From NCBI GenBank assembly GCA_047971315.1, contig JBKDZP010000004.1:5466-69465 (forward strand): a stretch of DNA of 64,000 nucleotides, written 5' to 3'. Position 1 is the stretch's first letter, and each line of letters opens with the position of its first letter. The notes under the pieces are model-generated. The model was not told where the DNA came from. It made no database searches and saw only the letters and a program-made list of their open reading frames with translations. This DNA comes from Bacilli bacterium. GTDB taxonomy: Bacteria; Bacillota_I; Bacilli_A; RF39; UBA660. Positions 12,465-58,751 of the stretch are shown here, piece after piece. The translations under genes and the position numbers were made by a program.

Positions 12465-12466
12465 AG

Positions 12467-25344: not shown

Positions 25345-26736
25345 TTATTCAATTAAGTCTCTTGTAAATGTATTAACATACACTTTTACCTTATAATCTG
25401 TTAGTAAGTTATAATTATATACTTTATTATTTTTTAAATCATTAAATATTTCACTATCAAACCCAATAGTAAAACTTTTTAATGATGATCTTATACTTAT
25501 ATAATCTATCTCTGCATATTCATCTATGTATACACCTATTATGTCATTAAACTCACTATAATAACTAACATCAATTCTTACTTGATAATCTTCTAAACTT
25601 TCATCTATTTCCAATGTATCATAATTCATTGTTGTTCCCTTACTAATTTTTTCAGTATAAGTTACTACATCTTCTATATATTTATCAGGTAAATAATTAT
25701 GATATGAGAAATTAGTTATATACTCAATAGTCATTAAGGTCCCTATTACCGTAAATATTATACTAATAATCAAATTCCAAACATAAATTTTAGTTTTAGT
25801 AAAAAGCAATTTATAAATTGTATTAGTAAAAAACAATTGAAGTCCTAATATACCAATTAATAAAATTATAATTCCAAATATTTGTAAACCCTTAATAGCA
25901 AAATATATAGCAATTGTTAGAAAAATAATAAACGAAATAATAACAACCCATGCAGGTATAATAACAATAATAACAACCCATATTTTTAATAATAACATAA
26001 TTATATTTTCTACACTATTAGTTTTTTTTACCTCTTTTTTCTTTGATACTTGTATTTTTTCATTATTATTATTTTCATCAATATTATTGGTTTTTTTTAC
26101 TTTTTTTTTATTATCTTTTTTATCTGATTTTTTAATAATTTCTTTTGTTAAATCAGACTCAGTAATATTCACATATTTTTTTACAATTGAAAATATCAAT
26201 AATATACATATTGCAATATAAGATATATATACTAATAAACTCCAAATAATAGACAATAAACTGTCAAGTGGTGAAAATCCCAAATTAATTAAATTAGAAC
26301 CTAATCTAGATATTATGTTAAATGGTATATTTAATATTACTAGTAAAAAAAGACATATTATTATTTTAATTGCAATTACAAATACAGTTTCATTATTTAA
26401 TTCTTTTCCATTCTGTTGAAAAGATTTAACTATAATTTCAGTTATTTCACTTAATTTTTTTGCTCCTTTTTTTATAAGATTATCTATGTCATTTAAAAAT
26501 GAGTTTTCAGTGTCATTGGTTTTTCTATAATCTGGATTTATTTTATAAGCACTTAAAATTTCTTTAGTTAACTGGTCAATACTACCAAATTCACTAACTG
26601 CATCAATCTCCTTTTTACCGTGTTTTACTTTTTCTTCAATAATATCGCGATATTCATTTATTATATCATTCTTTTCTTCTTCGCTTAAAACTTCAAGTTT
26701 ATTTTTTAATTGTTTTAAAAATTGTTCTTTATTCAT
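25345..26736 (-). CDS. DUF1700 (HAAS-like) membrane protein partnered with PadR.
   Basis: The N-terminus MNKEQFLKQLKNKLEVLSEEEKNDIINEYRDIIEEK matches DUF1700. A polytopic membrane region follows. It lies directly downstream of a PadR regulator. Confidence 0.55.
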   Translation of the reverse strand: MNKEQFLKQLKNKLEVLSEEEKNDIINEYRDIIEEKVKHGKKEIDAVSEFGSIDQLTKEILSAYKINPDYRKTNDTENSFLNDIDNLIKKGAKKLSEITEIIVKSFQQNGKELNNETVFVIAIKIIICLFLLVILNIPFNIISRLGSNLINLGFSPLDSLLSIIWSLLVYISYIAICILLIFSIVKKYVNITESDLTKEIIKKSDKKDNKKKVKKTNNIDENNNNEKIQVSKKKEVKKTNSVENIIMLLLKIWVVIIVIIPAWVVIISFIIFLTIAIYFAIKGLQIFGIIILLIGILGLQLFFTNTIYKLLFTKTKIYVWNLIISIIFTVIGTLMTIEYITNFSYHNYLPDKYIEDVVTYTEKISKGTTMNYDTLEIDESLEDYQVRIDVSYYSEFNDIIGVYIDEYAEIDYISIRSSLKSFTIGFDSEIFNDLKNNKVYNYNLLTDYKVKVYVNTFTRDLIE

Positions 26737-26818
26737 TTTTATTACACTCCTTTATAAATTTAGAAACTGATTTTTAAAATATATTCCAAACTTCTAAATA
26801 TTCACTCATCTTTTCTTT

Positions 26819-27100
26819 TCATAAAATTGTTATTTTATAATATTTTCTAGATGGGCCCTCTTTAGATTCAACCAAATATGTATCAAAATATTTTTCATTT
26901 GTTAATCTTTTTAATAATGGATAAATAGTACCATCATTCACATCTACTACTTTTGAAACTTCTTCAACAAGTTCATATCCATACATATCTTTTTTATTAA
27001 CTGATAGTAGTACAATTAATTCTAGTACTCCTTTTTTCATTTGAGTATTAATATTATCACCTCTAAATATAATTTTATACCAACTACTATGTATTGTCAA
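26819..27100 (-). CDS. PadR-family transcriptional regulator. The start is probably the internal [10 protein letters not shown].
   Basis: The stretch [23 protein letters not shown]...[15 protein letters not shown]...SRKYYKIT matches the PadR wHTH. A TTGACA-17-TAAAAT promoter lies upstream on the minus strand. Confidence 0.7.
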
Positions 27101-41121: not shown

Positions 41122-41124
41122 ATC

Positions 41125-41459: not shown

Positions 41460-41612
41460 AATAAAATCACACTCCTAAATAATATTACGTAATTCAATTT
41501 GTCCATTATGACTAATATATAAATTTATAAATATTATTTAAAATAAAAAAAAGAAAAGAAATTTTCTCTTTTAAATATATTACTTATAGTTTAAATCAAA
41601 TTAAAATAATTT

Positions 41613-41831
41613 TTAATCCATATATTTATTCATTGATTTCATCATTTGATTAACTTGTTTTTGACTAGGTGTTCTTCCCATTTGAGTCATCATTGCTTTA
41701 ATCATTTGCTCATTAATTGGAGGATTTTTCTTAATATATTTTTTCATATAGTTACGAGCTATAAAAAATCCAGCTGCTGCACCTGCGATAAATCCAATTA
41801 CTACTTTTAAAATATCCATTATTAATTCCAT
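41613..41831 (-). CDS. yneF: UPF0154 / YneF-family small membrane protein.
   Basis: [67 protein letters not shown] aligns with B. subtilis YneF (…[45 protein letters not shown]). Confidence 0.8.
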
Positions 41832-41865
41832 TATATCACCTCAATTCTTATTATATATTTTTTAA

Positions 41866-44361: not shown

Positions 44362-44499
44362 AATCTCACCTTTTTTAATTATAACAAAAAATAGTTAATA
44401 ATGCAAAAAAAATATGGCAATCGCTTAAAAATTATCAATCGAATTAAAGAGTTAGTATTACCTTGAAAATAAGGTTTTCTATGTTTTTATCATTAAGCA

Positions 44500-45105
44500 T
44501 ATATCTTGTTAATTTTCTTTGTAAAGGCATATTCTCTCCAAATGTTTTATCTAAGCTTGTAAATTAAATACTATTTTTTTAATAATGATAAATTTGCTAA
44601 TGAATTTCTATTTCTAGAATGATCTTCATCTAAAATAACATCTAATCTTCAGTGTAATCCTCATTCTATATTATAATAGTCTTTTATTACATATTATAAT
44701 CTTTCAATTTGAATTGGATAATAAATTACATAATAGATGTCAGTTGTTTTTATCTTTGATACATTCTACATTATAACTTAAGAAATATTCTCTTGTCTCA
44801 CTTCTACCGCGATTTTTTCTATAGTTTTAGTATATTGTATTTCTTGATTCCCATATAAATTATTTTGTTTGTAAAAATATTTTTTTATGTTTTTTTGATT
44901 TCTTTTTGATTATCCTTTACCTTTAATACAAAATGACCATTTTTTGCAACACTTGTATTCATTATTTCTGTTTGAGTTCTTATTGAATCTATTGTTATAG
45001 TTGCTTCTTCTATATATATTAAAACTAATCGTTCAGGTATAGCAGTTATTTCATTTGATTTATCATTTACTCTTACCTGACCAATTGATAATCCACATCA
45101 CCTAG
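44500..45105 (-). pseudogene. 5'-truncated, frameshifted remnant of an ISAs1-family (H-repeat-associated) transposase.
   Basis: Minus-strand translation of ~44880-45105 gives LSIGQVRVNDKSNEITAIPERL...TIDSIRTQTEI...VLKVKDNQK, matching the ISAs1 core (LTLGQVKTDEKSNEITAIPELL...TIDAMGCQ...LALKGNQ). Downstream frames are broken by stops and shifts. Confidence 0.45.
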
Positions 45106-45900
45106 AAAAGCAGATAAAATATATGGTGGACAAAGTAATTCTCAAACATCATATCAATCAAATTTAGAACAAGAATATTTAAAACTAATTGAAAGACTAG
45201 CATTGCAAAAAATCAAAAATGATCTTCCATTTGAACCTCAATTAGATGCTGCATTTAGAAGGTTAACATCTTCGGGATTTGAAATTTCAAGAGATAAAAT
45301 AATGAGTGACATTCAAAAAGTAGTTGCAAAAAAAATATTGATTTAGAATTTAATAGTGATTATATTGAAACAAAAACTGCTGATAAAGTAGATTCTCAAA
45401 AATAAGTCGTAAAAATCAATTTAGAAAACATTTTTAATGGAGTTTCTGATATAGTTGCTGAAAAAGAAATTCAAAGTTCAAGAGATATACCAAGAGAACC
45501 TGTTATTCAAATTTCAAGCGATAACAAAGAAAAGTTATCTTAATTAAAAGTGAATAATAATATTCACCCAAATCAAAATGCCCATGAAGAATTAGAACAA
45601 TTGAAATAGGCTTCTCAACAGCCAAATGAACCAACATTTGTACATTTAGGAAACTTAACACAACAATCAGAAAATATTTGGGATGATTTAAATGGATTAG
45701 ATATAAACTCAAAAGAATTTTTAATTAGGTTTGAAAAATTAAATGAAATACAAATTGAAAGATTAGCTATATTATGTGCAAATAATTCACCTGAATTTGA
45801 TAATCAATTAAGCTTTGCAGTAAAAAATATTTTAAGTATAAACGATAAATTATGCTATGTAAGCGAACAACTTTTAAAAGATATTTATTTTTATTTTTAT
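45106..45900 (+). pseudogene. Decayed fragments of unknown plus-strand gene or genes (multiple frameshifts and in-frame stops).
   Basis: Short coding-like stretches (GQSNSQTSYQSNLEQEYLKLIERLALQKIKNDLPFEPQLDAAFRRLTSSGFEISRDKIMSDIQKVVAKKILI, then PREPVIQISSDNKEKLS, then ANNSPEFDNQLSFAVKNILSINDKLCYVSEQLLKDIYFYFYL) lie in different frames with intervening stops. Confidence 0.3.
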
Positions 45901-46067
45901 CTTTAATATTTAATATATTTCTAGTATAATCAGAGTAAGATATGTAATTAGTTCCTTTCAATGTTATTTTGACTAGTTCATTGTATCATAGGTTATCTGA
46001 CATGTCTTTTATTTATAAATAAAAATAGTATCAGTGATACCTCACCAACACTATTTATTATAGAATC

Positions 46068-47975
46068 CTATTTTACGTAATAATCTGATAGTGTAAAGTC
46101 AACGTTTTCTTCAATCCATTCTTTTCTTGGTTCTACTTTGTCCCCCATTAATACACTTACTCTTTTTTCTGCTAAAGCACCATCGGTTATATTTATTTTT
46201 ATTAAGCTTCTTTTTTCCGGATCCATAGTTGTTTCTCTAAGTTGAATAGCATCCATCTCTCCTAGTCCTTTATATCTTTGCGTTTGTGATGGTTTATTTT
46301 TAAATTTTTCAAGTATTTTTTTTCTTTCTTCTTCATCCCAAGCATAGTAAGATTCTTTTCCACTTGATATTTGATATAATGGTGGATTTGCTATATAAAG
46401 TTTGCCTGATTCTACAAGTGGCTTCATATATCTATAGAAAAATGTGATTAATAAAATTTGAATATGGGCTCCATCTACATCGGCATCTGTCATTATAATG
46501 ACTTTATCATAGTTGCAGTCTTTCACATCAAAATCAGTTCCCACACCAGCTCCAATTGTATGAATCATAGTATTTATTTCTTCATTCTTAAAGATTTCTT
46601 CCATTTTTGCTTTTTCAGTATTTAATACTTTTCCTCTAAGTGGTAAGATAGCTTGATATTTTTTATCTCTACCTAATTTTGCAGAACCACCTGCCGAGTC
46701 TCCTTCTACCAAAAATAGTTCATTTTTTGTTGTATCTTTACTTTGAGCTGGAGATAATTTTCCACTTAATGCTTGTTCTTTTTTATTTTTTGATTTACCA
46801 TTTCTTGCTTCATCTCTTGCTTTTCTAGCTGCCTCTGTTGCTTGTTTACTTTTAAGCATTTTATTTAAAATATTGGTAGCAATTTCCTTGTTTTCTTCTA
46901 AAAAGAATTGAAGTTTTTCATATGTAATACTCTCAACAATATTACGTGCTATTGGTGTTCCAAGTTTTCCTTTAGTTTGTCCTTCAAATTGAAGTAAATT
47001 TTCTGGAATTTGAAGACTTATTATTGCAGTTAAACCTTCTCTAGTATTTGGTCCTTCTAAATTAGTATCTTTTGCTTTTAGAAAATTATTATTTCTAGCA
47101 TAATCATTAAATACTCTTGTTAATGCAGTTTTAAATCCAACTTCATGAGTCCCACCATCATTTGTTTTAACATTATTCACAAATGAAATAATATTTTCTG
47201 AATAATTTTCAGTATATTGAAAAGCTATTTCTACATTAACTCCATCTTTCATTCCTTCAAATTGAACAACTTTATGAAGCTCATTTTTATCATCATTCAA
47301 ATATTCAATAAAAGCATTTAAACCATTTTCATAGTGAAAAATTTCTTTTTTATTATCTAAAATATCTTCAACTTCAATTGTTAATCCTTTAAGTAGAAAT
47401 GCACATTCTTGCATTCTTTCACATATTGTAGTGAATGAAAAATTAGTTGTGGAAAAGATATTATTATCTGGTAAAAATCTTACTTTTGTTCCGGTTTTTG
47501 AGGTTTTCTCTAATTTTTTTAGTGGAATTGAAAGTTTTCCACCATTTTCAAATTTAATAAAGTGTTCATATCCATCTTTTTTTATAATAACTTCTAGCCA
47601 TTGACTTAGGGCATTTACTACACTTGCCCCAACCCCATGTAATCCTCCAGATACTTTATATCCACCACTTTCAAATTTTCCACCAGCATGTAGTACTGTA
47701 TAAACTACTTCAGGAGTACTCATTCCACTTGAGTGTTTTCCAACTGGAACTCCTCTTCCTTCATCTTCAATACTAATACTATGGTCTTCATGTAGTATAA
47801 TTTTTATTTTTTTTCCATATCCATTTATTACTTCATCTATTCCATTATCTACAATTTCCCATACTAAGTGATGTAATCCTCTTTTGTCAGTTGATCCTAT
47901 ATACATTCCTGGTCTTTTTCTTACTGCTTCTAGACCTTCTAGTATTTTAATTGAACTTTCATCATAATTTGTCAT
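46068..47975 (-). CDS. parE: DNA topoisomerase IV subunit B (ParE).
   Basis: 635 aa. GHKL ATPase domain (EIVDNGIDE, GLHGVGASVVNALS), TOPRIM (EGDSAGGSAK, PLRGKVLN) and DxD (MTDADVDGAHI). Confidence 0.7.
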   Translation of the reverse strand: MTNYDESSIKILEGLEAVRKRPGMYIGSTDKRGLHHLVWEIVDNGIDEVINGYGKKIKIILHEDHSISIEDEGRGVPVGKHSSGMSTPEVVYTVLHAGGKFESGGYKVSGGLHGVGASVVNALSQWLEVIIKKDGYEHFIKFENGGKLSIPLKKLEKTSKTGTKVRFLPDNNIFSTTNFSFTTICERMQECAFLLKGLTIEVEDILDNKKEIFHYENGLNAFIEYLNDDKNELHKVVQFEGMKDGVNVEIAFQYTENYSENIISFVNNVKTNDGGTHEVGFKTALTRVFNDYARNNNFLKAKDTNLEGPNTREGLTAIISLQIPENLLQFEGQTKGKLGTPIARNIVESITYEKLQFFLEENKEIATNILNKMLKSKQATEAARKARDEARNGKSKNKKEQALSGKLSPAQSKDTTKNELFLVEGDSAGGSAKLGRDKKYQAILPLRGKVLNTEKAKMEEIFKNEEINTMIHTIGAGVGTDFDVKDCNYDKVIIMTDADVDGAHIQILLITFFYRYMKPLVESGKLYIANPPLYQISSGKESYYAWDEEERKKILEKFKNKPSQTQRYKGLGEMDAIQLRETTMDPEKRSLIKINITDGALAEKRVSVLMGDKVEPRKEWIEENVDFTLSDYYVK

Positions 47976-48046
47976 GTTTTATCACCTTTATTTATTATAA
48001 CAAAAAATAAGAAAATATCAAAGATTTCCTTATTATGTTTTAATTT

Positions 48047-48544
48047 TTATTTAAATATTTCAATTAATTGTTCCAAATTGTTGATTTCATTTATATTAAG
48101 ATCAGTTTTTTTATCTGGTAAGAATTGTATTGCTATTCCTCCACTTGATTTCCAATCAATAATATTTTCAATTCTGTCATCTACTAAAATTGCATCTTTA
48201 GCATTAACCATTTGTGGTTTTTTAAATACTTTAGGAACTCCAATTATTGGAATTTCCTTGATACTTTTTCTAATAAACTTTGTTTTATATATAAGTTCTT
48301 CTAGACTATTCATATGAGTTAAAATACTTATATTAAAAAATTTAGATTCGATTAATTTTTTTATATTTTCAATACTATTATTTATTTCACTACTTTGTGA
48401 AATCATTTTATCCCAGTCTATATTTTTATAATACTCTTCTTTTTTTTCAAAATCATCTTGTATTTTTAAGTCTTCAATATCTTTGTTCATAAAATTTACT
48501 GTATTTAATATAACTCCATCGAAGTCAATATATAATTGTTTCAT
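48047..48544 (-). CDS. HAD-superfamily small hydrolase, 5'(3')-deoxyribonucleotidase-like (tandem paralog 1).
   Basis: 165 aa. HAD motif I LYIDFDGVI and an aspartate motif ILVDD. Confidence 0.5.
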   Translation of the reverse strand: MKQLYIDFDGVILNTVNFMNKDIEDLKIQDDFEKKEEYYKNIDWDKMISQSSEINNSIENIKKLIESKFFNISILTHMNSLEELIYKTKFIRKSIKEIPIIGVPKVFKKPQMVNAKDAILVDDRIENIIDWKSSGGIAIQFLPDKKTDLNINEINNLEQLIEIFK

Positions 48545-48560
48545 TTTTTACCTCTTCTAT

Positions 48561-49058
48561 TTAAGTTACTATATCTAATATTTGGTCTAAACTATCAATT
48601 ACTTTAAATCCTTTACCAGCTAGTTTGGTTGAAAAACATATTCCAATACCACCTTGTTTTTCCCATTCTATTAAATTACCATCAAAATCATCAATTAATA
48701 TTGCATCTTTTGAGTCAACAATATCAGTTTTATTTAATTCTTTAGGAACTAGAATTACCGTTAAATTATTTATTTTACTTTTGATATATTTTATTTTTGC
48801 GGTTGCTTCATTAATTGATAGTACATGAGTTAAAATACTTATTTCAAATAATTTACTATCGATTAATTTTTGAATATTTTTAATGCTATTATTAATTTGT
48901 TCTGATTTTTTGATGAAAGCATTCCAATTTAAACTTTTATAAAATTCGTGACATTTATTATAGTCTTTTGTACTTATACCAAGTTCTTGTAATTTTTTAT
49001 ATGACGGTGAAATTGTATCTAGTATAACACCATCAAAATCAATGTATAATTTTTTCAT
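48561..49058 (-). CDS. HAD-superfamily small hydrolase, 5'(3')-deoxyribonucleotidase-like (tandem paralog 2).
   Basis: 165 aa. LYIDFDGVILDT and ILIDD. It is colinear with its neighbour along the full length, so the pair is a tandem duplication. Confidence 0.5.
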   Translation of the reverse strand: MKKLYIDFDGVILDTISPSYKKLQELGISTKDYNKCHEFYKSLNWNAFIKKSEQINNSIKNIQKLIDSKLFEISILTHVLSINEATAKIKYIKSKINNLTVILVPKELNKTDIVDSKDAILIDDFDGNLIEWEKQGGIGICFSTKLAGKGFKVIDSLDQILDIVT

Positions 49059-49133
49059 TCTATCACCAAGTAAAGTTTATCACGAACATTTGTATTTGTC
49101 TATAGTTTTTGAAAAAAATAATCAAATTTTTGA

Positions 49134-49670
49134 TTATTTTAATGCATCGATTAATTCTGATTTTTTCATGGTAGAAGCACCTGAAATATTAGCTGTTTTA
49201 GCTAATTCTCTTAATTCAGCTACAGTTTTTGAAGAAAGATCAGTTGTTTCATTATTTTCTACTGATTTTTTTTCAACTTTTTCTTCTACTTTAGTTTCAA
49301 CTTTTGTAGTTTTACCATTTAATGCAGTATTTGCTAAATTAACAAATTCTGTAAATGCAACTTTATTATCAATTGCTATTTCAGATAACATTTTACGGTT
49401 GATACTAATTCCTGCTTTGCTTAATCCATTAATGAATTTTGAATAACTAATGTTATTTTCTCTACAAGCAGCATTAATTATTGTAATCCATAATTTTCTG
49501 AAATCTCTTTTCTTTTGTCTTCTATCTCTATATGCATATTTTAATGAATGCATTACTTGTTCTTTTGCAGTTCTATATAATCTATGTTTACTACCAAAGT
49601 AACCTTTTGCTAATTTCATTACTTTTTTACGTCTTGCGTGATGAACTGATCCACCTTTAACTCTTGCCAT
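49134..49670 (-). CDS. rplT: 50S ribosomal protein L20 with an unusual ~60-aa C-terminal extension containing a Rho_N/SAP-like helix.
   Basis: The L20 core is [42 protein letters not shown]...[25 protein letters not shown]-rich linker follows, then [30 protein letters not shown]. Confidence 0.85.
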
Positions 49671-49688
49671 GTTTTTCCTCCTTTAAAA

Positions 49689-49883
49689 CTATTTTCCTAT
49701 TATATCCTTTATTCTTGAATAATCAGCACTTGATAATAATGAACCTGCTCTACCTGTTCTATTAGATGCAGCATTCTTTTTACCAGTATTATGTCTTGTA
49801 CCTGCTTTTCCAATTTTAATTGTTCCACCTGGTCTTACTTTACAAACTTTAGCAGTACCTTTGTGTGTCTTCATTTTTGGCAT
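49689..49883 (-). CDS. rpmI: 50S ribosomal protein L35.
   Basis: Starts MPKMKTHKGTAKV, 64 aa and basic. It sits between infC and rplT. AGGAGG ribosome-binding site. Confidence 0.8.
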   Translation of the reverse strand: MPKMKTHKGTAKVCKVRPGGTIKIGKAGTRHNTGKKNAASNRTGRAGSLLSSADYSRIKDIIGK

Positions 49884-49894
49884 ATAAATTCCTC

Positions 49895-50443
49895 CTATTT
49901 TTCCTTCTTTGGCGTTAGCATCATTGTCATAAATCTACCATCTAATGATGGTTTTTGTTCGATAACAGCTATATCTTCTACAGCTGAAGCGAAACGTTGT
50001 AATACTTCTCTTCCTAATTCAGGATGAGCCATTTCTCTTCCTTTAAAACGAATTGATACTTTTACTTTATGACCTTTTTCTAATTACTTTGATGAGTTAC
50101 AAACGCGTGTTTCAAAATCATGTTTATCAATTGCAACTGAAAGTCGATATTCTTTAACTTCAAGATTGCTTTCTCTTTGTTTTTTCATGTTTTCTTTTTG
50201 TTTTTTCTTGTTTTCATATTTAAATTTGCTATAATCCATAATTTTACAAACTTGTGGATTAGCACTTTGGTTAATTAAAACAAGATCAAATCCTGCATAA
50301 CCAGCTAAAGTTAATGCATCTTTAATTGGTTTCACACCTAATTGTTCTCCTTTAGGTCCTATTACCATTACTTCTCTTGCACGTATTTGTTCATTTATGT
50401 ACATATCTTTTTCTCTATTATTTGCGATACCTGACACCTCCAT
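49895..50443 (-). CDS. infC: Translation initiation factor IF-3, interrupted by one in-frame TAA at 50083-50085. The start codon is uncertain: an in-frame ATG at 50441-50443, or a non-AUG start at ATC 50426-50428 preceded by GGAGGTG.
   Basis: The product reads ...[24 protein letters not shown]...[84 protein letters not shown]. Both halves align to IF-3 (B. subtilis ...[37 protein letters not shown]...), and the stop replaces the conserved F of KFLEKG. Confidence 0.7.
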
Positions 50444-50609
50444 TAAAAAAAGTGAACACACAGTATCCACTTATAACCATAGTATCTTATTGTATAAAGA
50501 TTATTTGGCTGTATACCCAAAGCTTATGCAATCGGGTGAGAAGTGGATCTTCTTCTTTCCTTTTTTTAAATTTCTTCTATATTATACATATTAATATTAT
50601 GTTTGTCAA
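50443..50609 (-). promoter_or_regulatory. Promoter and 5' leader of the infC-rpmI-rplT operon, with a candidate terminator/antiterminator attenuator (L20-type autoregulation).
   Basis: On the minus strand: TTGACA (50604-50609), an exact 17-nt spacer, TATAAT (50581-50586). In the leader, GATCCACTT can pair with AAGTGGATA. That pairing competes with the hairpin AAGTG-GATACTGTGTGT-TCACTT followed by a T7 run just before the ribosome-binding site. Confidence 0.4.
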
Positions 50610-50610
50610 C

Positions 50611-51504
50611 TTATTTTATGTTATTTTTATATACTGATGTTTTAACTTTAGATTTTTTAATATCTTCCTCATTAGTAGTATTATCTATTTTATAAATTTC
50701 TTCATAATCTTCTAATTTATTTAGTACATTTTCAAATGTTTCTTTATTATTATAATCAGATTCAACCATATAGTTTTGAATAATTGAAAAAATAAGTTGC
50801 AATCTTTTTGAAGCATATTTTAATGATTCTTTATTTTGAAAATACGCAGCCAATACTACTTCTTTATCATCTTTAAATTTTTTTATAACAATATCTAGTG
50901 CATTTCCATCTTGTTTTACTACTTCTAAAACTACATCTTTATCATTTCTTAATTCTTTTGAAACATACCAATATAAATATGCATCTTGTTTTACTACTTT
51001 CAATACTACTTCTTTATTATTTTTTATTTCATATGATGCAGCAGTAAAATTATGGCAGTTTTGGTATATTCTTTCCATTATTATATCATCATCAAAACGT
51101 ATTCTGCATGAAGAAAACTCACCTGCTTGCTCATTTTGTTTTACTGCTTCCAATACTACTTCTTTAACATTTCGAAATATTGCTGCAAATTCTAATGCAA
51201 GTCCATTTTGCCTTACCGCTGCTAATACTACTTCTTTATCTTTTCTTAGTTCAATTGATGCATGTTTTAATGCAAGTCCATTTTGCTTTACCGCTGCTAA
51301 CACTACTTCTTTATCTTTTCTTAGTTCAATTGATGCATATTTTATTGCAAGTCCATTTTGCTTTACCGCTATTAATATTATTTCTTTATCATTTTTTATT
51401 TCTAGTGTTTGGTTTAATAAGTTTGACCAATCTTCTTTAACTCTCTCTATAGCTTTCTTTCTTTTTTCATCATAATAAAGCATATCATTTCCCCCTAAAC
51501 GCAT
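50611..51504 (-). CDS. DUF4116 repeat protein.
   Basis: Reiterated 22-aa units of the form KEVVLAAVKQNGLALKHASIELRKD. Confidence 0.6.
   Translation of the reverse strand: MRLGGNDMLYYDEKRKKAIERVKEDWSNLLNQTLEIKNDKEIILIAVKQNGLAIKYASIELRKDKEVVLAAVKQNGLALKHASIELRKDKEVVLAAVRQNGLALEFAAIFRNVKEVVLEAVKQNEQAGEFSSCRIRFDDDIIMERIYQNCHNFTAASYEIKNNKEVVLKVVKQDAYLYWYVSKELRNDKDVVLEVVKQDGNALDIVIKKFKDDKEVVLAAYFQNKESLKYASKRLQLIFSIIQNYMVESDYNNKETFENVLNKLEDYEEIYKIDNTTNEEDIKKSKVKTSVYKNNIK
51180..51440. repeat. Tandem repeats of about 66 bp (four or more units) inside the DUF4116 gene.
   Basis: A near-identical repeat unit beginning at 51180-51245 (…gcaagtccattttgc(c/t)ttaccgctgctaa(t/c)actacttctttatcttttcttagttcaattgatgca…); the antisense ORF 51180-51440 shows the 22-aa periodicity. 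Confidence 0.7.
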
Positions 51505-51713
51505 ATACTATAGCAAAATTTATTTTAGATGTCAATATTTTTTTATCCAATCTACCAAGAGAATATTTTTAACTTGATCAAACAATTACAATATTTATAT
51601 AATATAAAAAAACATAATCCAATTTCTTATAAAGGATTATATGTTTTTTATATCAAACTCAATTTACATATTAATATTAAATTTGATAACTAGCTTTATG
51701 TTATTTATATCTA

Positions 51714-52988
51714 TTAATTTTTTTTAAGTTTTGACACATACTTTATCTTATTTTTTTTATTTAATAATTTATTAACAGCAAACATAACTCCAATTTTACC
51801 ATATTCATAAGTAAGGCCGCCTTGTTGATAAGCTATAAAAGGACTTCTTAAAGGTCCATCACAACTTAGTTCAATTGAAGATCCTTGTGTAAAACTACCA
51901 GATGCCATTATTACTTTGTCATCATAGCCAGGCATTTCCCAAGGAAATGGTAATGCATGAGCATCTATTGGTGAACCAGCTTGAATTCCTTGACAATATA
52001 ATACTAAATCAGTTTCATTTTTAAATATTATATTTTGAACTATGTCAGTTCTGTCTTCATTATATTTAGGTTCTACATCATATCCTATATTTTCCATTAC
52101 TTTGCTTGTTATTATAGCAGTTTTTAAACTACTTCCTACAACACTTGGAGCCATAAATAGTCCTTGTAATAGTGATTTATTTATTCCTAAACTTGGTCCT
52201 ACCTCTTTACCTTCTCCTGGTATAGTTAGTCTTTCACTTGCTAGTTTTACCAATTCTTTTTTACCAGCTATATATGCTCCATTAGGGGCAATTCCAGCTC
52301 CTAGATTTTTAATTAATGAACCAACAATTATATCTGCTCCAACACTTAATGGTTCATTTTTATTCACAAATTCACAGTAACAATTATCAACCATTATAAT
52401 TACTTCTTTATCTATTTTTCTAATTTTATATATTACTTGTTTTACTTTTTCTAAAGATAAACTTTTTCTTGTTGAATATCCTTTAGATCTTTGTATTTCA
52501 ATTACCTTTATTTTATTATTTTTCAGATGTTGTTGTATTTTTTCAATATCAAAATTATCATCTATTAATTCTATTTGTTGATAATTAATATTAAATGATT
52601 TTAGAGAACTTTTATTTTCTTTAATACCTATTACTTCATCTAATGTATCATATGGCTTTCCTGTTATACTAAGAAGTGTATCGCTTGGTCTTAAGAATGC
52701 GAATAATGCCACTGTAAGAGCATGTGATCCTGATATAAACTGATTTCTAACTAAACAGTCTTCTGCACCTAATACTTTAGCAAATACTTTTTCTATTGTA
52801 TCTCTTCCAATATCACCATATCCATAACCTGTAGTTGAATTAAAGTGTGTTTCTGAGATTTTAAATTCATGAAAGGCATTAATTACTTTTAAACTTTGAT
52901 ACTCAACTAATTCATCTATTTTTTTGAATTCTTTTTGAATTTCATTTTCAGCTAAATTAAATAAATTTATTATTTCATCATTTATCAT
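51714..52988 (-). CDS. PLP-dependent YnbB / aluminium-resistance-family protein (methionine gamma-lyase-like).
   Basis: 424 aa. The N-terminal pattern FHEFKISETHFNSTTGYGYGDIGRDTIEKVFAKVLGAEDCLVRNQFISGSHAL matches the YnbB family. Confidence 0.55.
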   Translation of the reverse strand: MINDEIINLFNLAENEIQKEFKKIDELVEYQSLKVINAFHEFKISETHFNSTTGYGYGDIGRDTIEKVFAKVLGAEDCLVRNQFISGSHALTVALFAFLRPSDTLLSITGKPYDTLDEVIGIKENKSSLKSFNINYQQIELIDDNFDIEKIQQHLKNNKIKVIEIQRSKGYSTRKSLSLEKVKQVIYKIRKIDKEVIIMVDNCYCEFVNKNEPLSVGADIIVGSLIKNLGAGIAPNGAYIAGKKELVKLASERLTIPGEGKEVGPSLGINKSLLQGLFMAPSVVGSSLKTAIITSKVMENIGYDVEPKYNEDRTDIVQNIIFKNETDLVLYCQGIQAGSPIDAHALPFPWEMPGYDDKVIMASGSFTQGSSIELSCDGPLRSPFIAYQQGGLTYEYGKIGVMFAVNKLLNKKNKIKYVSKLKKN

Positions 52989-53731
52989 TAATATGTTCCT
53001 CCATCTACTACAATTATTTGATTATTTATGTAACTTGCATCATCACTTACAAGAAACTTTACTACTTTAGCAATTTCTTCTTCTTTTCCATATCTTTTTA
53101 AAAATATCTTTTGTTCTTCTAACTCAATAAATTCTTTATCCATATTTTTTAATTCATTATTTGTTCCAATAAATCCTGGTGCTACAGCATTTACATTTAT
53201 ATATGGCGCAAATTGAAGAGATATATTATGAGTTAATGAATTAATACCAGATTTTGATGCATCATAGTCAAGACACATTGGATAATATTTATTTATACCA
53301 TTAGTTGATGATATATTTACAATTTTACCAAATTTATTTTTATACATTATATCTCCAATATATTTACTTACTAAGAATGTTCCTACAAGATTTGTTTCAA
53401 GTATTTTCATAAAATTTTCTTTTGTTTTATCAAAAAATAATGTATCAATTGCTATTCCTGCATTATTTACTAAAATATCTACTTTACCAAATTTATCAAT
53501 TATTTTATTTACCATTTCTTTTATTTCTAATTCACTACTAATATCACATTTTACTATAAAACATTCTACATTATAAGTATTTATAACATGTTTTTTCAAA
53601 TCTTCAGCACTTTTTTGATCAGTATTATAGTTTATTACTACATTACATTTTGAACCTGCAAGTTCTTTTATAATAGTACTTCCAATTCCTTTACTAGATC
53701 CTGTTACGAGTGCTACTTTACCTTCTAACAT
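52988..53731 (-). CDS. Short-chain dehydrogenase/reductase (3-oxoacyl-ACP reductase FabG-like).
   Basis: GKVALVTGSSKGIGSTI Rossmann motif, NNAG, and a catalytic S...YxxxK pattern (YDASKSG). Confidence 0.75.
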   Translation of the reverse strand: MLEGKVALVTGSSKGIGSTIIKELAGSKCNVVINYNTDQKSAEDLKKHVINTYNVECFIVKCDISSELEIKEMVNKIIDKFGKVDILVNNAGIAIDTLFFDKTKENFMKILETNLVGTFLVSKYIGDIMYKNKFGKIVNISSTNGINKYYPMCLDYDASKSGINSLTHNISLQFAPYINVNAVAPGFIGTNNELKNMDKEFIELEEQKIFLKRYGKEEEIAKVVKFLVSDDASYINNQIIVVDGGTY

Positions 53732-53817
53732 GATTCACCTCATTATTTCATATATAAATTGTATCATAAAAATTTATATTAATATATTATTAATTTCTAA
53801 GTATTAAAAAAAGAGCA

Positions 53818-54375
53818 CTATGCTCTTGATGAATATTTTCCATCAGCTGATGTAACTAGGATTTTTTCACCTTGTTCAATAAATAAAGGAACTCTTACTA
53901 AAAGACCAGTTTCTACATATGCGTCTTTTTGAGCGTTATTTGTAGTATTTCCTTTTACAGCTGGTTCAGTTGTTACTATTGTAAATTCAACTTTATCTGG
54001 TAAAATTACACCTAGTAATTCTCCTTGGAAAAATGAAACTGTAACCATCATATTGTCTATTAGATAAAATTTATCATCGCCTAGTTGTTCATCTGTCAAT
54101 TCAAATTGTTCATATGATTCCATATTCATAAAATAATAATCAGTTCCAGTATTATATAAATATTGGACTGTTTTTTTATCAATATTTGCTTTTTCAAATT
54201 TAATATTTGTATTGAATGTTCTTTCTAATGTTGAACCATTTTTTAAGTTTTTAATTTTAGTTTTCATAAAAGCTGAACCTTTTCCTGGTTTAACATGTAA
54301 AAATTCAATTACTTGAAAAATATTTCCTTCAATGATTAAAGTCATTCCAGTTTTAATATCGTTTACTTCTATCAT
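53818..54375 (-). CDS. efp: Elongation factor P.
   Basis: 185 aa. MIEVNDIKTGMTLIIEGNIFQVIEFLHVKPGKGSAFMKTKIKNLKNGS, where KPGKG carries the modified lysine. Confidence 0.9.
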   Translation of the reverse strand: MIEVNDIKTGMTLIIEGNIFQVIEFLHVKPGKGSAFMKTKIKNLKNGSTLERTFNTNIKFEKANIDKKTVQYLYNTGTDYYFMNMESYEQFELTDEQLGDDKFYLIDNMMVTVSFFQGELLGVILPDKVEFTIVTTEPAVKGNTTNNAQKDAYVETGLLVRVPLFIEQGEKILVTSADGKYSSRA

Positions 54376-54400
54376 ATTATCTTCCTTTTTTTATATATTT

Positions 54401-54568
54401 TTATTTTTCTTCCTTATGTGCTGTATGTTGTTGACATCTTGAACAATATTTACTTAGTTCTAGACGTGTTGGTGTATTTCTTTTATTTTTTGGAGTACGA
54501 TAATTTTTTTCTCCACATACTGTACATTTTAATGTAATATTTTCTCTTGCTTCACCTTTTTTTGCCAT
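54401..54568 (-). CDS. rpmG: 50S ribosomal protein L33 (55 aa), not in the ORF table.
   Basis: GGAGGAAGAAAC-ATG, product [55 protein letters not shown], with four Cys forming a zinc ribbon. Confidence 0.85.
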
Positions 54569-54645
54569 GTTTCTTCCTCCTTTTTTAACGCATTGTCTAT
54601 ATTATAACAAAAAATACATTTTTTTTAAATATATTTTTATCTTTT

Positions 54646-55695
54646 TTATAAAATACTTTCTTTTTTTATAAAATTCTTGTTATTTAATTCATTATCATAG
54701 TTTAAAATATACTCTTCATAATTTGCTTTATTTACATCAAATTTTTGGTATAATTCAGTTATCATATCTAATCTATCTTGATTTAGTTGTATTTTAGATG
54801 ACTTTATAAAATTATAATTTTCATTTAAAATTTTTCCAACATACTTTTGATCAATTAATAATAATTGTGCTTTAATATATAATTGAAGTAAATAACTTTG
54901 AAATTTTTCTTCATCTGTTTTTATATTACAAATTAATAAATTTTTTTGATAATTTGTAATCTCAGAATATGCAACTTCATTTATTTCTTCTTTATAAATG
55001 GATGGATCAACATAATAATATTTTAATAAATTGTTACTAATTTTTTTAGGATTTGGTATTTTACCATTTTGTAAGAAACTATTTTCTAAAAAATTATATG
55101 TTGATATTAAGTTATATTTAAATAGAATTAAATCTTTTTTGAAATTACATTCTGATTTTTTTAGTTCATCATCAATTAAATATACAATTACTCTTATTTT
55201 TTCTATTTTATATAAAAATGGAATCATAACTCTATTTTCAAAATTAAATATTTTAGTATATTCTGTTTCTAAACTTATTGGATCTTTTGCCAATCTCTTA
55301 AGATTTTCTTTTGTTAAATCCGTTGTACCAAGCTTTTTCATAGTTTCTTTAAAATATTTTCGATTAATCATATGATCAAAATTGAGATTTGTTGTTATTT
55401 CTTTTAAATATCTAGATGATTCTGTTAAATCTATTAGTTCTGTTAAATCTGGTTGATTTTTTTGATTTATTTTATTGTCGATTTTTATTTTTAATTTTAC
55501 TTTACTTTCATCATCTAATTTTCTATACGATTTATTTAATATTTCTACACATAAATTTATATATTCTAACTCTTTAGTAATACTTTGTCCTTTAAATTCT
55601 TTAATAGCTAAATTATTATAATATTCATTTTTCAATTTAGTTGTTTTAATAATAGTATCAAATATTTGATTTAAATTACTTTCTTGTTTTTCCAC
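54646..55695 (-). CDS. Hypothetical protein.
   Basis: A 349-aa ORF with no recognised motif. Confidence 0.35.
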   Translation of the reverse strand: MEKQESNLNQIFDTIIKTTKLKNEYYNNLAIKEFKGQSITKELEYINLCVEILNKSYRKLDDESKVKLKIKIDNKINQKNQPDLTELIDLTESSRYLKEITTNLNFDHMINRKYFKETMKKLGTTDLTKENLKRLAKDPISLETEYTKIFNFENRVMIPFLYKIEKIRVIVYLIDDELKKSECNFKKDLILFKYNLISTYNFLENSFLQNGKIPNPKKISNNLLKYYYVDPSIYKEEINEVAYSEITNYQKNLLICNIKTDEEKFQSYLLQLYIKAQLLLIDQKYVGKILNENYNFIKSSKIQLNQDRLDMITELYQKFDVNKANYEEYILNYDNELNNKNFIKKESIL

Positions 55696-55748
55696 ACAAT
55701 CACCTCACGTAGGTGATATAATAACACAATTTCTTATTTTTTCAACAA

Positions 55749-57827
55749 TTATTTGTTATAAATTTTAAAATAAGCATCACTTATTTTTTTAGAAATTCTT
55801 TTATTTACATATGATTGATATGTACTATTTTTATTATATGTGTAAACGTTTGGAGAAATTACTGTAAATGTTACTTTAGGATTATCATATGGGGCATATC
55901 CAACAAATGTAGTTGTTACAGTTTCTGTATCAATTTTACCATCATTATTTGTATCAACAAAGCTTTGACTTGTTCCAGTTTTTCCTGCTGGATTATATAT
56001 TTTATCAATATATCCAGACCCCGTTCCACCAGTTTTCATTACTTCTATAAAACCTTCTTTTACTCTATTTAAATATTGATTTTCAGTATTAACGGTATTT
56101 AAAATAACAGTATTTTGTTCTAATATTTTATTTGTCAAATTACTAGAACTACTATAAACTGATTTTAATAAATGAGGTTTTAGTCTATTTCCACCACTAG
56201 CTATTGTCGAAATATACTGTGATAATTGAATTGGAGTATAGTTATCATATTGTCCAATAGTAAAATCAAGTAATAAACCAGATGAATCATTTTTGCCAAT
56301 CAAGCCTACACTTTCATTTGGCAAATCAATTCCTGTTTTTACTCCTAATCCAAATTCATTAAATGTTGTTCTATAAATATTAAAAATTTGTTCATTCACT
56401 TTAAGTCCACCATTATATACATAATTTATTCCAGCTACTTTCATTGCTGTATAAAATTGATATGTATTTGATGAATATTTTAAGGCAGTAATATCATTTA
56501 ATAATCCCAAATATTTCCATGAACATTTTAAATTTGTAGAAGCTAATTTAACACAGTTATCATATCTTTGTTCACCAATTACTAAAGCATTATTATTATA
56601 ACCTACAATATGTGATGCTCCTTTTACAACAGATCCTACTGTGACTGCTTCATTTATAATTCCGGTTGTATAATCGTATATTTGATAGTTACCAGCATTA
56701 TAAACTATTTGTTTACCAGCCATCGCTAGAATTTCCCCGTTGTTTGGATCAGTTATAATTACAAATGAATGATTATAGTTTTCTGTATTTGGTTCTAATT
56801 TTGCTTTTATTAATTCTTCTTCAAGTATTTCTTCTACTTGTTTTTGTAATTCAATATCGATAGTTAATACTAAATCATTTCCCCTACTACCAGTTGATAC
56901 CAAAGTTTGATTTCCGTTTGCTTCTATTTGATAAGTATTTTTAGTTCCTTTTAAATATTTATCATAATAGTATTCTAAGTAGCTTATTCCTACTCTGTCA
57001 TTTAGAGTATAACCTTCTTTTAAATAATATTCTTTTAGTTCAAATGGAATACCAGATTCTCCTGATACTGTTCCAATAATAGATTTAAACACACTATCAT
57101 ATACATAACTTCTATTCCAGTCCAATCTAGTGTTTATTCCATTAAGTTCATTAGCCTTAATAGATATAATAGCGTATTCTTCATCAGTTACATTTTCACT
57201 TTTAATTATCTTTTCAGAATACGAATAACCTTTATTCATAAGTGTATAAATATATATAGCTTTAAGGTCAGTATCAGTATAATTTAAATCTTGATTATTT
57301 ATTCTATCTAATTTTAAGTTTTCAATTTCTTCGGATGTTATTTTTCTATTTTTTAAATCTTCATATTCTTCTTTAGTTATTTTGTTATAAGCTAAATCTG
57401 GATTACTTTTAATCCAAAATATTTTTATATTTAGAGTTGTAAGTTTAGAATAATCTAACTCTATTAAAGTAGATAATGTGTATGCCAGTTTTATTTCTTC
57501 TTTATTTGTTATACTAGTGTTTTTTTTATAGTAAATTACTTTAGTTGGTATATTATCAACAATTAATTGAAAATTTCTATCATAAATTCTACCTCTAGGA
57601 GCAGTACTTCCTTCGATTAAAGTTTTTGTAAGTTCAATAATTTTAGATTTATAAGTATCTTGATTTATTATTTGAATATTAAATAATGTTACAAACAATA
57701 AAATTATTAGTGTCATTATTATTTTAATTAATATATTATATCTTTTTTCAATTGTTTTTTTTAGATTTCTTTTTTTATTTAATGATTTAGATTGATTTTT
57801 TACTTTGTGTTTTTTTATAAATTTCAT
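55749..57827 (-). CDS. Class B penicillin-binding protein (PBP2/SpoVD-type transpeptidase).
   Basis: 692 aa. N-terminal membrane anchor and a dimerisation domain. The transpeptidase domain has SxxK (TVGSVVK), SxN and KTGT (AGKTGTSQ). Confidence 0.8.
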   Translation of the reverse strand: MKFIKKHKVKNQSKSLNKKRNLKKTIEKRYNILIKIIMTLIILLFVTLFNIQIINQDTYKSKIIELTKTLIEGSTAPRGRIYDRNFQLIVDNIPTKVIYYKKNTSITNKEEIKLAYTLSTLIELDYSKLTTLNIKIFWIKSNPDLAYNKITKEEYEDLKNRKITSEEIENLKLDRINNQDLNYTDTDLKAIYIYTLMNKGYSYSEKIIKSENVTDEEYAIISIKANELNGINTRLDWNRSYVYDSVFKSIIGTVSGESGIPFELKEYYLKEGYTLNDRVGISYLEYYYDKYLKGTKNTYQIEANGNQTLVSTGSRGNDLVLTIDIELQKQVEEILEEELIKAKLEPNTENYNHSFVIITDPNNGEILAMAGKQIVYNAGNYQIYDYTTGIINEAVTVGSVVKGASHIVGYNNNALVIGEQRYDNCVKLASTNLKCSWKYLGLLNDITALKYSSNTYQFYTAMKVAGINYVYNGGLKVNEQIFNIYRTTFNEFGLGVKTGIDLPNESVGLIGKNDSSGLLLDFTIGQYDNYTPIQLSQYISTIASGGNRLKPHLLKSVYSSSSNLTNKILEQNTVILNTVNTENQYLNRVKEGFIEVMKTGGTGSGYIDKIYNPAGKTGTSQSFVDTNNDGKIDTETVTTTFVGYAPYDNPKVTFTVISPNVYTYNKNSTYQSYVNKRISKKISDAYFKIYNK

Positions 57828-58407
57828 TTATTTTTTTAAAATCAACAATGTAAAAAAAGTTTTCTATATATTTTTGCTTATTACTTTGATAATCCAAATA
57901 ATAAGCATGTTCCCATAAGTCAATCGTCATAATTGGTGTAAAGCCATAGGCAAATGGTGTTTCTTGATTACTTGTATTTATAATATCTAATTCATTATTT
58001 TTAAGCACTAAGAATGTATAACCCGAACCAGTTATTAAATTGGCCTTCTTTTTAAATTCTTTTTTAAAATTGTCAAAGCTTCCATATTTTAAATCAATGG
58101 CATTTTTTATTTCATTTTCTGGTTTATTTGATTTATTTGGACTAATATTTTCAAAATAAAGATTATGATTTAATACTCCACCAGCATTATATAATATTTC
58201 ATCTCTAATATATAATGGAAATTTGTCAATATTTTTAACTAGTTCTTCTAAACTGTAATTACCATTATAATTTATTGAACTTAAGTATTTATTAAGATTA
58301 TTCACATAATTTTTATAGTGATTTTCATAGTGTATACCTAAAGTTCTAGCACTTAAAAATGGTTCTAATTCATCATAGTCATAATCTAGTTCTTGAATAT
58401 TATACAT
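57787..58407 (-). CDS. sodA: Fe/Mn superoxide dismutase. The start is the internal MYNIQELDY.
   Basis: HYENHYKNYVNNLN ... DLWEHAYYLDYQSNKQKYIENF carries the metal ligands and the DxWEHAYY signature. Confidence 0.85.
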   Translation of the reverse strand: MYNIQELDYDYDELEPFLSARTLGIHYENHYKNYVNNLNKYLSSINYNGNYSLEELVKNIDKFPLYIRDEILYNAGGVLNHNLYFENISPNKSNKPENEIKNAIDLKYGSFDNFKKEFKKKANLITGSGYTFLVLKNNELDIINTSNQETPFAYGFTPIMTIDLWEHAYYLDYQSNKQKYIENFFYIVDFKKINEIYKKTQSKKSI

Positions 58408-58487
58408 AATATCACCTCTATTTAAGTTTATTTCAAAAATACTACAATATTCTAATATCACTACATATATTATATAGAGGTGATATT

Positions 58488-58751
58488 ATGTTTAAAAATT
58501 TAATTAAAAATTATGTGGATAAGTTAAGTACTGAGGATATCAACTTTTTTGCTGTATCAAATAATATTTATTTAAATGAAGTTGAAAAGAAAATAATTTA
58601 TAAGGAAATAAAGGAAAACTGGAAAATACTACTTAGTGATAATTATTATTCAGTTTTAAAAAATATAAAAGATAAAGTAAGTCTTGAAACTTACTTTAAG
58701 ATAGAAAATTTAATTAAAATTTATAGAAATAAATATAAAAATTATTTGTAA
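58488..58751 (+). CDS. Hypothetical small protein.
   Basis: An 87-aa ORF. Confidence 0.3.
   Translation: MFKNLIKNYVDKLSTEDINFFAVSNNIYLNEVEKKIIYKEIKENWKILLSDNYYSVLKNIKDKVSLETYFKIENLIKIYRNKYKNYL

What the first reader, a model, noticed from the sequence alone, without database searches (positions are those of the whole stretch)
49895..50443. In-frame TAA stop inside the essential infC gene
Translation of infC reads ...[39 protein letters not shown]... Both sides align colinearly with IF-3, and the stop sits exactly where the conserved Phe/Tyr of KFLEKG belongs. A single T-to-A change (TAA in place of TTA, TAT or TTT) explains it.

IF-3 is essential, and the downstream 62 codons are intact and conserved. 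That leaves four explanations: a sequencing or assembly error, a very recent nonsense mutation, an engineered edit, or stop-codon readthrough or recoding.

The start is also atypical. There is a GGAGGTG ribosome-binding site, but no ATG at the right spacing. infC genes often use AUU-class starts, and the candidate here is ATC.
Basis: seen in the sequence. Interest (0 to 1): 0.6.

Follow-up and report, generated by a model that had tools for sequence, protein, structure and literature searches.

The report
Single-base error-like stop in infC
The stop codon inside the essential IF-3 gene is real in this sequence, but it is one of several private, unselected-looking base substitutions in this record (an almost identical independent assembly has a normal tyrosine codon), so it points to a sequence error or a stray mutation rather than to any recoding mechanism.

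Summary
infC lies on the minus strand (ATC start 50428, TAG stop 49897-49895) and has an in-frame TAA at 50086-50084, with 62 intact codons after it.

It is not a biological signal. Logan contigs from run SRR30067233 cover 43.4 kb of the window at 99.97% identity. They read TAC (Tyr) at this codon. Tyr is also present in 120/120 of the closest IF-3 protein clusters and in 80/81 related loci, none of which has an internal stop. TAA is the main terminator in the window (36 of 52 ORFs).

The window differs from the Logan contigs by 14 substitutions and no indels:
- Six are G:C->T:A, always with T:A in the window.
- Three of the 13 coding changes are nonsense: infC Y120*, and G74* and S89* in a PadR gene.
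- One replaces an L20 arginine that is invariant in 81/81 loci.
- Only two are synonymous, which is what unselected change would give.

The most likely cause is a consensus or damage error, or else a very recent non-viable variant. The rest of the locus is an ordinary Firmicute infC-rpmI-rplT operon with an L20 leader and a conserved AUC/AUA start.

The parts
49895..50428 (-). infC (IF-3) coding sequence, from the conserved ATC start (50428-50426) to the TAG stop (49897-49895). It is interrupted by the in-frame TAA.
   Evidence: Translation. Pfam IF3_N and IF3_C. TIGR00168 at 199 bits. Start-codon conservation.
50084..50086 (-). Premature TAA. It is codon 120 from the ATG and codon 115 from the ATC. 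The variant base is 50084: T on the plus strand here, G in the Logan contig, i.e. TAC->TAA on the coding strand.
   Evidence: Tyr in 80/81 loci and in 120/120 protein clusters.
50435..50441 (-). Shine-Dalgarno GGAGGTG, 6 nt upstream of the ATC start. The ATG at 50443-50441 overlaps it and is not the start.
   Evidence: GGAGGTG is present in all 81 related loci. In 8 loci the spacing is 7 nt, which puts it out of frame with the ORF. In 46 loci there is no in-frame upstream ATG.
50438..50563 (-). L20 leader (transcription attenuator of the infC-rpmI-rplT operon). Its terminator hairpin and T-run end at the ribosome-binding site.
   Evidence: Rfam RF00558, 47.1 bits, E 6.4e-8, full model 1-127. 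This is below the gathering score of 58.7. The hairpin and T-run are conserved upstream in relatives. The mechanism is described in PMC1865079.
49689..49883 (-). rpmI (L35), identical to the Logan contig.
   Evidence: PF01632.
49134..49670 (-). rplT (L20, with a C-terminal Rho_N-like extension). It carries a second private change, AGA->ATA (R64I), at 49480.
   Evidence: Arg at this position in 81/81 relatives.
26729..27040 (-). PadR-family regulator gene with two further private in-frame stops: TGA at 26821-26819 (GGA in Logan) and TAA at 26776-26774 (TCA in Logan).
   Evidence: Pfam PadR covers residues 10-79 of the intact Logan version.

Best explanation
The locus is an ordinary Firmicute-type infC-rpmI-rplT operon from an uncultured, RF39-like gut Bacilli lineage. 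It has an L20-leader attenuator, a GGAGGTG ribosome-binding site and a conserved non-canonical AUC start. The in-frame TAA is a private single-base substitution of this record (TAC Tyr -> TAA; plus-strand G->T at 50084).

It belongs to a scatter of about 14 substitutions per 43 kb that separate this record from an independent assembly of essentially the same strain. That scatter shows no trace of purifying selection and is dominated by changes towards T:A. Read literally, the gene would give an IF-3 that lacks about 70% of its C-terminal domain, which a viable cell is not expected to tolerate.

The most likely origin is therefore a base error in the consensus: template damage, low coverage, or the wrong choice of variant during assembly.

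Shown here:
- The substitution is absent from the near-identical assembly and from all relatives.
- Other private nonsense and invariant-site changes exist in the same record.
- TAA is the normal terminator in this window.

Inferred:
- The cause is technical rather than a real allele.
For: (1) The Logan contig L001 is identical over the whole infC gene and leader except for TAC versus TAA.

(2) Five Logan contigs cover 43,359 nt of the window with 14 substitutions and 0 indels.

(3) In the direction Logan->window, 6 are G:C->T:A, 3 are A:T->T:A and 5 are transitions. All six G:C<->T:A differences have T:A in the window (p=0.03).

(4) Of the 13 coding differences, 3 are nonsense in the window (infC Y120*, PadR G74*, PadR S89*), 8 are missense and 2 are synonymous. 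Random substitution in these ORFs would give 6% nonsense overall (18% for G:C->T:A), 75% missense and 19% synonymous.

(5) L20 R64I replaces an Arg present in 81/81 relatives.

(6) Tyr120 is present in 80/81 loci (one His) and in 120/120 of the nearest clusters. No relative has an internal stop.

(7) TAA terminates 36 of 52 ORFs in the window, 11 of them in the same TAA-T context.

(8) The stop falls at residue 120, inside IF3_C (residues 95-179).

(9) The truncated products and the L20 R64I protein are not on record in any other assembly.
Against: No raw reads are available, so a real allele cannot be excluded.

The complete lack of indels in 43 kb of a homopolymer-rich, 25% G+C genome argues against a noisy long-read assembly. 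A consensus built from well-covered short reads would rarely carry this many substitution errors, so the technical cause is unidentified.

A G:C->T:A-biased spectrum is also what a repair-poor, AT-rich bacterium produces naturally.

The sample is only 14 differences, and the excess of nonsense changes over random expectation is marginal (p=0.04 to 0.07).
Confidence: 0.62

Rival explanations
1. It is a genuine, very recent nonsense mutation, together with the other private changes, in the sampled population. For example, a mutator or bottlenecked sub-lineage, or a minority or non-viable genotype that the assembler happened to follow. There is no dedicated mechanism to read through it.
For: No further change has accumulated in infC or downstream of the stop: 1 difference in 681 nt. 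The spectrum is rich in G:C->T:A, as expected for 8-oxoG-type mutagenesis in vivo. A ratio near dN/dS = 1 is expected for very young differences. There are no indels that would suggest poor sequence quality.
Against: A truncation inside IF3_C of the only infC copy seen in the window should be lethal, going by established knowledge of IF-3 in E. coli. It therefore cannot be the fixed genotype of a growing lineage. The allele is absent from the only other assemblies of this strain.
Confidence: 0.27
2. It is programmed or tolerated decoding of the UAA, by readthrough, an ochre suppressor tRNA or a codon reassignment. Loss of IF-3 might be buffered by de-repression of the AUC start, and the L20 R64I change might weaken attenuation.
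For: infC is autoregulated through its non-AUG start, so lower IF-3 would raise its own translation (PMC1865079). The second private change lies in the operon's own repressor, L20. No tRNA genes lie in the window, so a suppressor cannot be ruled out.
Against: The stop is absent from a 99.97% identical strain and from 80 related species and 120 protein clusters. TAA is the main terminator, and TAA-T is a common natural stop context here. No other long gene in the window has an in-frame TAA. The other two private stops hit an unrelated PadR gene, and one of them is a TGA, so no codon-specific mechanism fits.
Confidence: 0.03
3. It is a deliberate or in-silico alteration of the sequence: an engineered stop, or substitutions introduced after assembly.
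For: The window's own alleles are found in no public assembly. The transition:transversion ratio of 5:9 is close to the 1:2 expected for uniform random substitution.
Against: The changed sites are enriched at G:C, at 8 of 14 in a 25% G+C sequence (p=0.01). Uniform random editing would not give that. There is no design logic in a set that mixes PadR, a synonymous site and an intergenic site.
Confidence: 0.06

Closest known systems
infC-rpmI-rplT operon of Bacillus subtilis and other low-G+C Gram-positives (L20 leader attenuation; atypical infC start codon) - PMC1865079
   Same: Same gene order. An L20_leader match sits directly upstream, with its terminator abutting the ribosome-binding site. 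The start is non-ATG/GTG, AUC here versus AUU in B. subtilis and E. coli.
   Different: The leader scores below Rfam's gathering threshold (47.1 versus 58.7 bits). L20 carries a C-terminal Rho_N-like extension. This record has the in-frame TAA, which is not part of the known system.
prfB (RF2) programmed +1 frameshift at an in-frame UGA: the classic case of a translation-factor gene with an internal stop used for autoregulation (from general knowledge)
   Same: An essential translation-factor gene that contains an in-frame stop codon, in a gene that is autoregulated at the level of translation.
   Different: In prfB the stop is conserved across bacteria, the downstream part is in another frame, and an internal SD-like signal is present. 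Here the two halves are in the same frame and the stop occurs in one record only.
C>A/G>T artefacts from oxidative DNA damage during library preparation (PMC3616734)
   Same: The private differences are dominated by G:C->T:A, and always towards T:A in this record.
   Different: Such artefacts are normally low-fraction and seldom reach a consensus. Three A:T->T:A changes are also present. Read-orientation bias, the diagnostic test, could not be examined.

Membership tests
Translation initiation factor IF-3 (infC; TIGR00168, PF05198 + PF00707) | N-terminal and C-terminal IF-3 domains, colinear, scoring above the family cut-offs | tested here: met
   With codon 120 read as Tyr: IF3_N at residues 16-85 (103.5 bits) and IF3_C at 95-179 (121.2 bits). 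TIGR00168 scores 199 bits against a cutoff of 60. E = 1e-52 to solved IF-3 5me0_Y.
Translation initiation factor IF-3 (infC; TIGR00168, PF05198 + PF00707) | Uninterrupted reading frame | tested here: not met
   TAA at 50086-50084. The frame is intact in the 99.9% identical contig L001.
Translation initiation factor IF-3 (infC; TIGR00168, PF05198 + PF00707) | Operon context infC-rpmI-rplT, with an L20 leader and a non-AUG start | tested here: met
   Gene order. RF00558 at 47.1 bits, E 6.4e-8, which is sub-threshold. ATC or ATA start in 81/81 loci.
Programmed stop-codon readthrough / recoding | The stop codon is conserved at the same position in relatives | tested here: not met
   0 of 81 loci and 0 of 120 protein clusters have it. 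Tyr or His throughout.
Programmed stop-codon readthrough / recoding | A dedicated decoder (suppressor tRNA) or a stimulatory downstream signal | not testable with these tools
   No tRNA genes in the window, and the rest of the genome is not available. The downstream sequence is identical to that of the strain with TAC, so it was not shaped for readthrough.
Stop-codon reassignment (alternative genetic code) | The codon is not used as a terminator and is frequent inside conserved genes | tested here: not met
   TAA ends 36 of 52 ORFs. The only other same-frame pairs of long open segments are neighbouring genes.
Decaying pseudogene | Several lesions or relaxed constraint within the gene | tested here: not met
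   There is a single difference in 681 nt against L001. All 62 downstream codons are identical.
Record-specific base errors / unselected private substitutions | Absent from an independent assembly of the same strain | tested here: met
   L001 has TAC. The truncated products are not on record elsewhere.
Record-specific base errors / unselected private substitutions | Other damaging private changes in the same record, with proportions expected for unselected change | tested here: met
   PadR G74* and S89*, and L20 R64I. The 13 coding differences split into 3 nonsense, 8 missense and 2 synonymous. Random expectation is 6%, 75% and 19%.
Record-specific base errors / unselected private substitutions | Raw reads contradict the consensus base | not testable with these tools
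   There is no read-level access to the source assembly or to SRR30067233/SRR30067234.

The most novel reading that the evidence does not exclude
The TAA is a real allele of a living lineage. Under this reading, full-length IF-3 is still made by low-level UAA readthrough or an ochre suppressor tRNA. The shortfall is buffered by IF-3's own negative feedback on its AUC start, and by the neighbouring L20 R64I change weakening L20-leader attenuation. That would make it a natural case of an essential translation factor surviving a nonsense mutation through its autoregulatory circuits.
Probability: 0.03. Interest if true: 0.6.

Novelty: not a real feature. Interest (0 to 1): 0.08.

Why it matters
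As biology it matters little. The operon is a standard infC-rpmI-rplT unit, and the stop is not a recoding signal.

Its value is practical:
- This record carries roughly 3 private substitutions per 10 kb, including at least three premature stops. Apparent pseudogenes, 'split' genes or odd residues elsewhere in this genome should not be interpreted without the reads.
- Public gene calls for this clade start infC at an ATG that overlaps the ribosome-binding site, whereas comparison shows a conserved AUC/AUA start.

If the stop were real and tolerated, it would be a rare natural test of how far IF-3 autoregulation can buffer a nonsense mutation. The evidence gives that little room.

Tried and rejected
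- **Metagenome scan.** An exact-pattern scan of JGI metagenomes with N at the variable base gave 0 hits, so there is no allele count from there.
- **Exact-product look-ups.** I looked up the 119-aa truncated IF-3, the 45-aa downstream ORF, L20 R64I and the HAD-like E158 protein. None is on record. The window's own source assembly is therefore not in the collection, and no second assembly carries these alleles.
- **GTDB species genomes.** The best infC is only 82% identical, so there is no same-species reference apart from the Logan contigs.
- **Second infC copy.** None found in the window.
- **tRNA scan for a suppressor.** No tRNA genes at all in the window.
- **Rfam at gathering thresholds.** Nothing found. 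The L20 leader appears only with the E-value threshold.
- **Other genes split by an in-frame stop.** The two same-frame pairs with long segments (TAG at 24904 and TAG at 28852) turned out to be neighbouring genes, not split genes. The apparent broken frame at 34.7-35.2 kb was my own mis-framing.
- **Shared sequence motif.** I inspected the 14 variable sites by eye for a common motif such as a methylation site. None was apparent.
- **Clustering of differences.** There is a 46-bp pair in PadR and a 604-bp pair in infC/rplT. With 14 points on 43 kb, about 0.2 pairs that close are expected, so this is not significant and I do not use it as evidence.
- **Split, two-piece IF-3.** Rejected. The stop lies inside the C-terminal domain (IF3_C spans residues 95-179), and the next in-frame ATG is 18 codons downstream with no ribosome-binding site.

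Full report
**1. The observation**

The gene is on the minus strand. Translating 50443..49895 gives an IF-3 sequence with one internal stop...[36 protein letters not shown]..., and ends at a TAG. Sixty-two sense codons follow it.

With the codon repaired, Pfam finds IF3_N (residues 16-85) and IF3_C (95-179). NCBIfam TIGR00168 infC scores 199 bits against a cutoff of 60. The position aligns with the Phe of KFLEKG in solved IF-3 structures. The stop therefore removes about 70% of the C-terminal domain.

**2. What the closest sequences show**

An exact-product look-up with the neighbouring rpmI found a Logan contig from run SRR30067233 (L001, 4,295 nt). In that contig infC is called as an intact 182-aa protein with both IF-3 domains. 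Over the 681 nt of gene and leader, the only difference from the window is TAC (Tyr) in L001 against TAA in the window. The change is C->A on the coding strand, which is G->T at plus-strand position 50084.

A scan of one genome per GTDB species returned 80 related loci. These are uncultured gut Bacilli/'Tenericutes' MAGs of the Acholeplasma sp. CAG:878 / Ca. Coprosoma type, and the best is 82% identical in protein.
- At this codon, 80 of the 81 loci (including L001) have Tyr (TAT 69, TAC 11) and one has His. None has an internal stop.
- The 120 nearest protein clusters in a 5.8-billion-protein collection all have Tyr and are all full length. Only one cluster, L001's own protein, is more than 90% identical.

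The stop is therefore private to this record.

**3. Is TAA decoded differently here?**

No. TAA terminates 36 of 52 ORFs in the window (TAG 12, TGA 4), and the TAA-T context of the infC stop is shared by 11 natural terminators. A scan for same-frame open segments of at least 50 codons separated by one stop found only infC and pairs of neighbouring genes. There are no tRNA genes in the window and no second infC copy.

**4. The stop is one of a set**

Four more Logan contigs from the same run overlap the window (L082, L084, L085, L086). Together with L001 they cover 43,359 nt of the window: 11307-28933, 37205-51256 and 51309-62988. Across that span there are 14 substitutions and no indels, a rate of 3.2e-4.

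Classified in the direction Logan -> window:

| Class | Position and effect |
|---|---|
| G:C->T:A (6) | 50084 infC Y120* |
| | 49480 rplT R64I |
| | 47154 parE synonymous |
| | 26821 PadR G74* (GGA->TGA) |
| | 26775 PadR S89* (TCA->TAA) |
| | 15337 def L181I |
| A:T->T:A (3) | 61847 intergenic |
| | 27286 L19I |
| | 22920 I6L |
| Transitions (5) | 57399 synonymous |
| | 53590 Y48H |
| | 48073 K158E |
| | 19941 SMC E304G |
| | 11992 rubrerythrin A167V |

The PadR gene (26729-27040, minus) is an intact 103-aa ORF in the Logan contig and carries two in-frame stops in the window. L20 Arg64 is Arg in 81/81 relatives.

So 3 of the 13 coding differences are nonsense, and all three stops are in the window, and only 2 are synonymous. 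Enumerating every possible single-base change in the window's ORFs gives 6.1% nonsense (17.9% for G:C->T:A), 74.6% missense and 19.3% synonymous. The observed mix is what unselected change gives, and it is not what surviving polymorphism in essential genes looks like.

Further points on the spectrum:
- All six G:C<->T:A differences have T:A in the window (p=0.03).
- Transitions number 5 and transversions 9, against the transition excess usual for natural bacterial SNPs (p=0.016 if two thirds were transitions).
- G:C sites are over-represented, at 8 of 14 in a 25% G+C sequence (p=0.01). This argues against uniform random editing.

At least one transition looks like an ordinary polymorphism derived on the Logan side. 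At HAD-like residue 158, relatives have Asp in 20 and Glu in 1, the window has Glu and Logan has Lys.

**5. Interpretation**

Four of the window's private alleles can be polarised, and all four are derived and damaging. They sit in a record that otherwise matches an independent assembly at 99.97%. A truncation inside IF3_C of the only visible infC copy is not expected to be compatible with growth. That rests on established knowledge of IF-3 in E. coli and was not tested here.

The best explanation is that these bases are errors of the consensus, from damage-derived or low-coverage calls or from a wrong variant path. G:C->T:A is the classic signature of oxidative damage artefacts (PMC3616734).

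I cannot identify the technical cause. The absence of indels argues against a noisy long-read assembly, and damage artefacts rarely reach a consensus. The main rival, a real but very recent and probably non-viable or minority genotype, possibly from a G:C->T:A mutator background, therefore keeps appreciable weight. Programmed readthrough, suppression or reassignment is close to excluded. Deliberate editing is neither supported nor excluded.

**6.

GGAGGTG (50441-50435) is present in all 81 loci. The codon 6 nt (73 loci) or 7 nt (8 loci) downstream is ATC in 62 and ATA in 19. In 46 loci there is no in-frame upstream ATG, and in the 7-nt cases the ribosome-binding site is out of frame with the ORF.

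The start is therefore the ATC at 50428-50426. The ATG at 50443, which public gene calls use, overlaps the ribosome-binding site and adds five spurious residues. The TIGR00168 match begins at residue 11 of the ATG-based ORF, which is consistent with this.

A non-AUG infC start is the known basis of IF-3 autoregulation in E. coli and is general in Gram-positives (PMC1865079). Directly upstream, 50438-50563 matches the Rfam L20 leader over its full length (47.1 bits, E 6.4e-8, below the gathering score of 58.7). Its terminator hairpin and T-run are conserved in relatives. This matches the L20-dependent transcription attenuation described for B. subtilis (PMC1865079).

**7. Verdict**

It is a record-specific base substitution, one of at least three private premature stops. 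Interest is low. The decisive test is read-level inspection at 50084, 49480, 26821 and 26775.

Noticed in passing
window 26729-27040 (-): A PadR-family regulator gene carries two in-frame stops in the window: TGA at 26821-26819 and TAA at 26776-26774. It is an intact 103-aa ORF (GGA and TCA at those codons) in the near-identical Logan contig L086.
   Followed up: yes
window 49480 (rplT codon 64, 49481-49479, -): L20 has Ile (ATA) where the Logan contig and all 81 relatives have Arg (AGA; the RINAA motif). This is a second private G:C->T:A change, 604 nt from the infC stop and in the same operon.
   Followed up: yes
window 28852-29319, 29222-30931 and 41100-41459 (all -): The sporulation sigma factor gene sigK is split by an intervening element of about 11.9 kb. 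The 5' half ends ...CIEN at about 41.1 kb, and the 3' half resumes EILM... at about 29.2 kb, next to a large serine recombinase. Joined, the two halves score 303.4 bits on TIGR02846 SigK (cutoff 298.65). Logan contigs L084 and L085 overlap by 30 nt (41129-41158) beside the 5' half of sigK. That may reflect integrated and excised forms in the sample, but this was not tested.
   Followed up: partly
window 21307-25251: There are SpoVAC/SpoVAD/SpoVAEB genes, a STAS (SpoIIAA-like) gene and an adjacent sigma factor gene. These are sporulation-type genes in a small-genome, 25% G+C, RF39-like gut lineage.
   Followed up: no
window 49134-49670 (-), residues 144-177: L20 carries a C-terminal extension with a Rho_N (SAP-like) domain (Pfam PF07498, E 2.6e-10). 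Alignments reach into this extension in 71 of 81 related loci, so it is a clade feature.
   Followed up: partly
window 50438-50563 (-): An L20 leader (RF00558) is present but scores below Rfam's gathering threshold (47.1 versus 58.7 bits), so standard annotation would miss it in this clade.
   Followed up: partly
window 50426-50443 (-); L001 814-1362: Public gene calls start infC at the ATG that overlaps the Shine-Dalgarno site (MEVSG...). Comparison of 81 loci shows the real start is the ATC/ATA 6-7 nt after GGAGGTG. This is a systematic five-residue over-extension.
   Followed up: yes
window 44362-46067: There is a 1.7-kb stretch with no ORF of 70 aa or more between the parE-like and parC-like genes. 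It is 100% identical in Logan contig L085. One frame holds a weak transposase-like remnant (DDE_Tnp_1, 15 bits, E 0.02, below cutoff), so this is probably a decayed insertion sequence.
   Followed up: partly
window 48047-49058 (-): Two tandem paralogous 165-aa genes of HAD-phosphatase-like appearance (MK.LYIDFDGVIL...) lie here. The one tested (48561-49058) has no Pfam match.
   Followed up: no
window 50611-51504 (-): This is a DUF4116 repeat protein with six repeats. Logan contigs L001 and L082 both end inside it (51256 and 51309), presumably because of its internal repeats.
   Followed up: no
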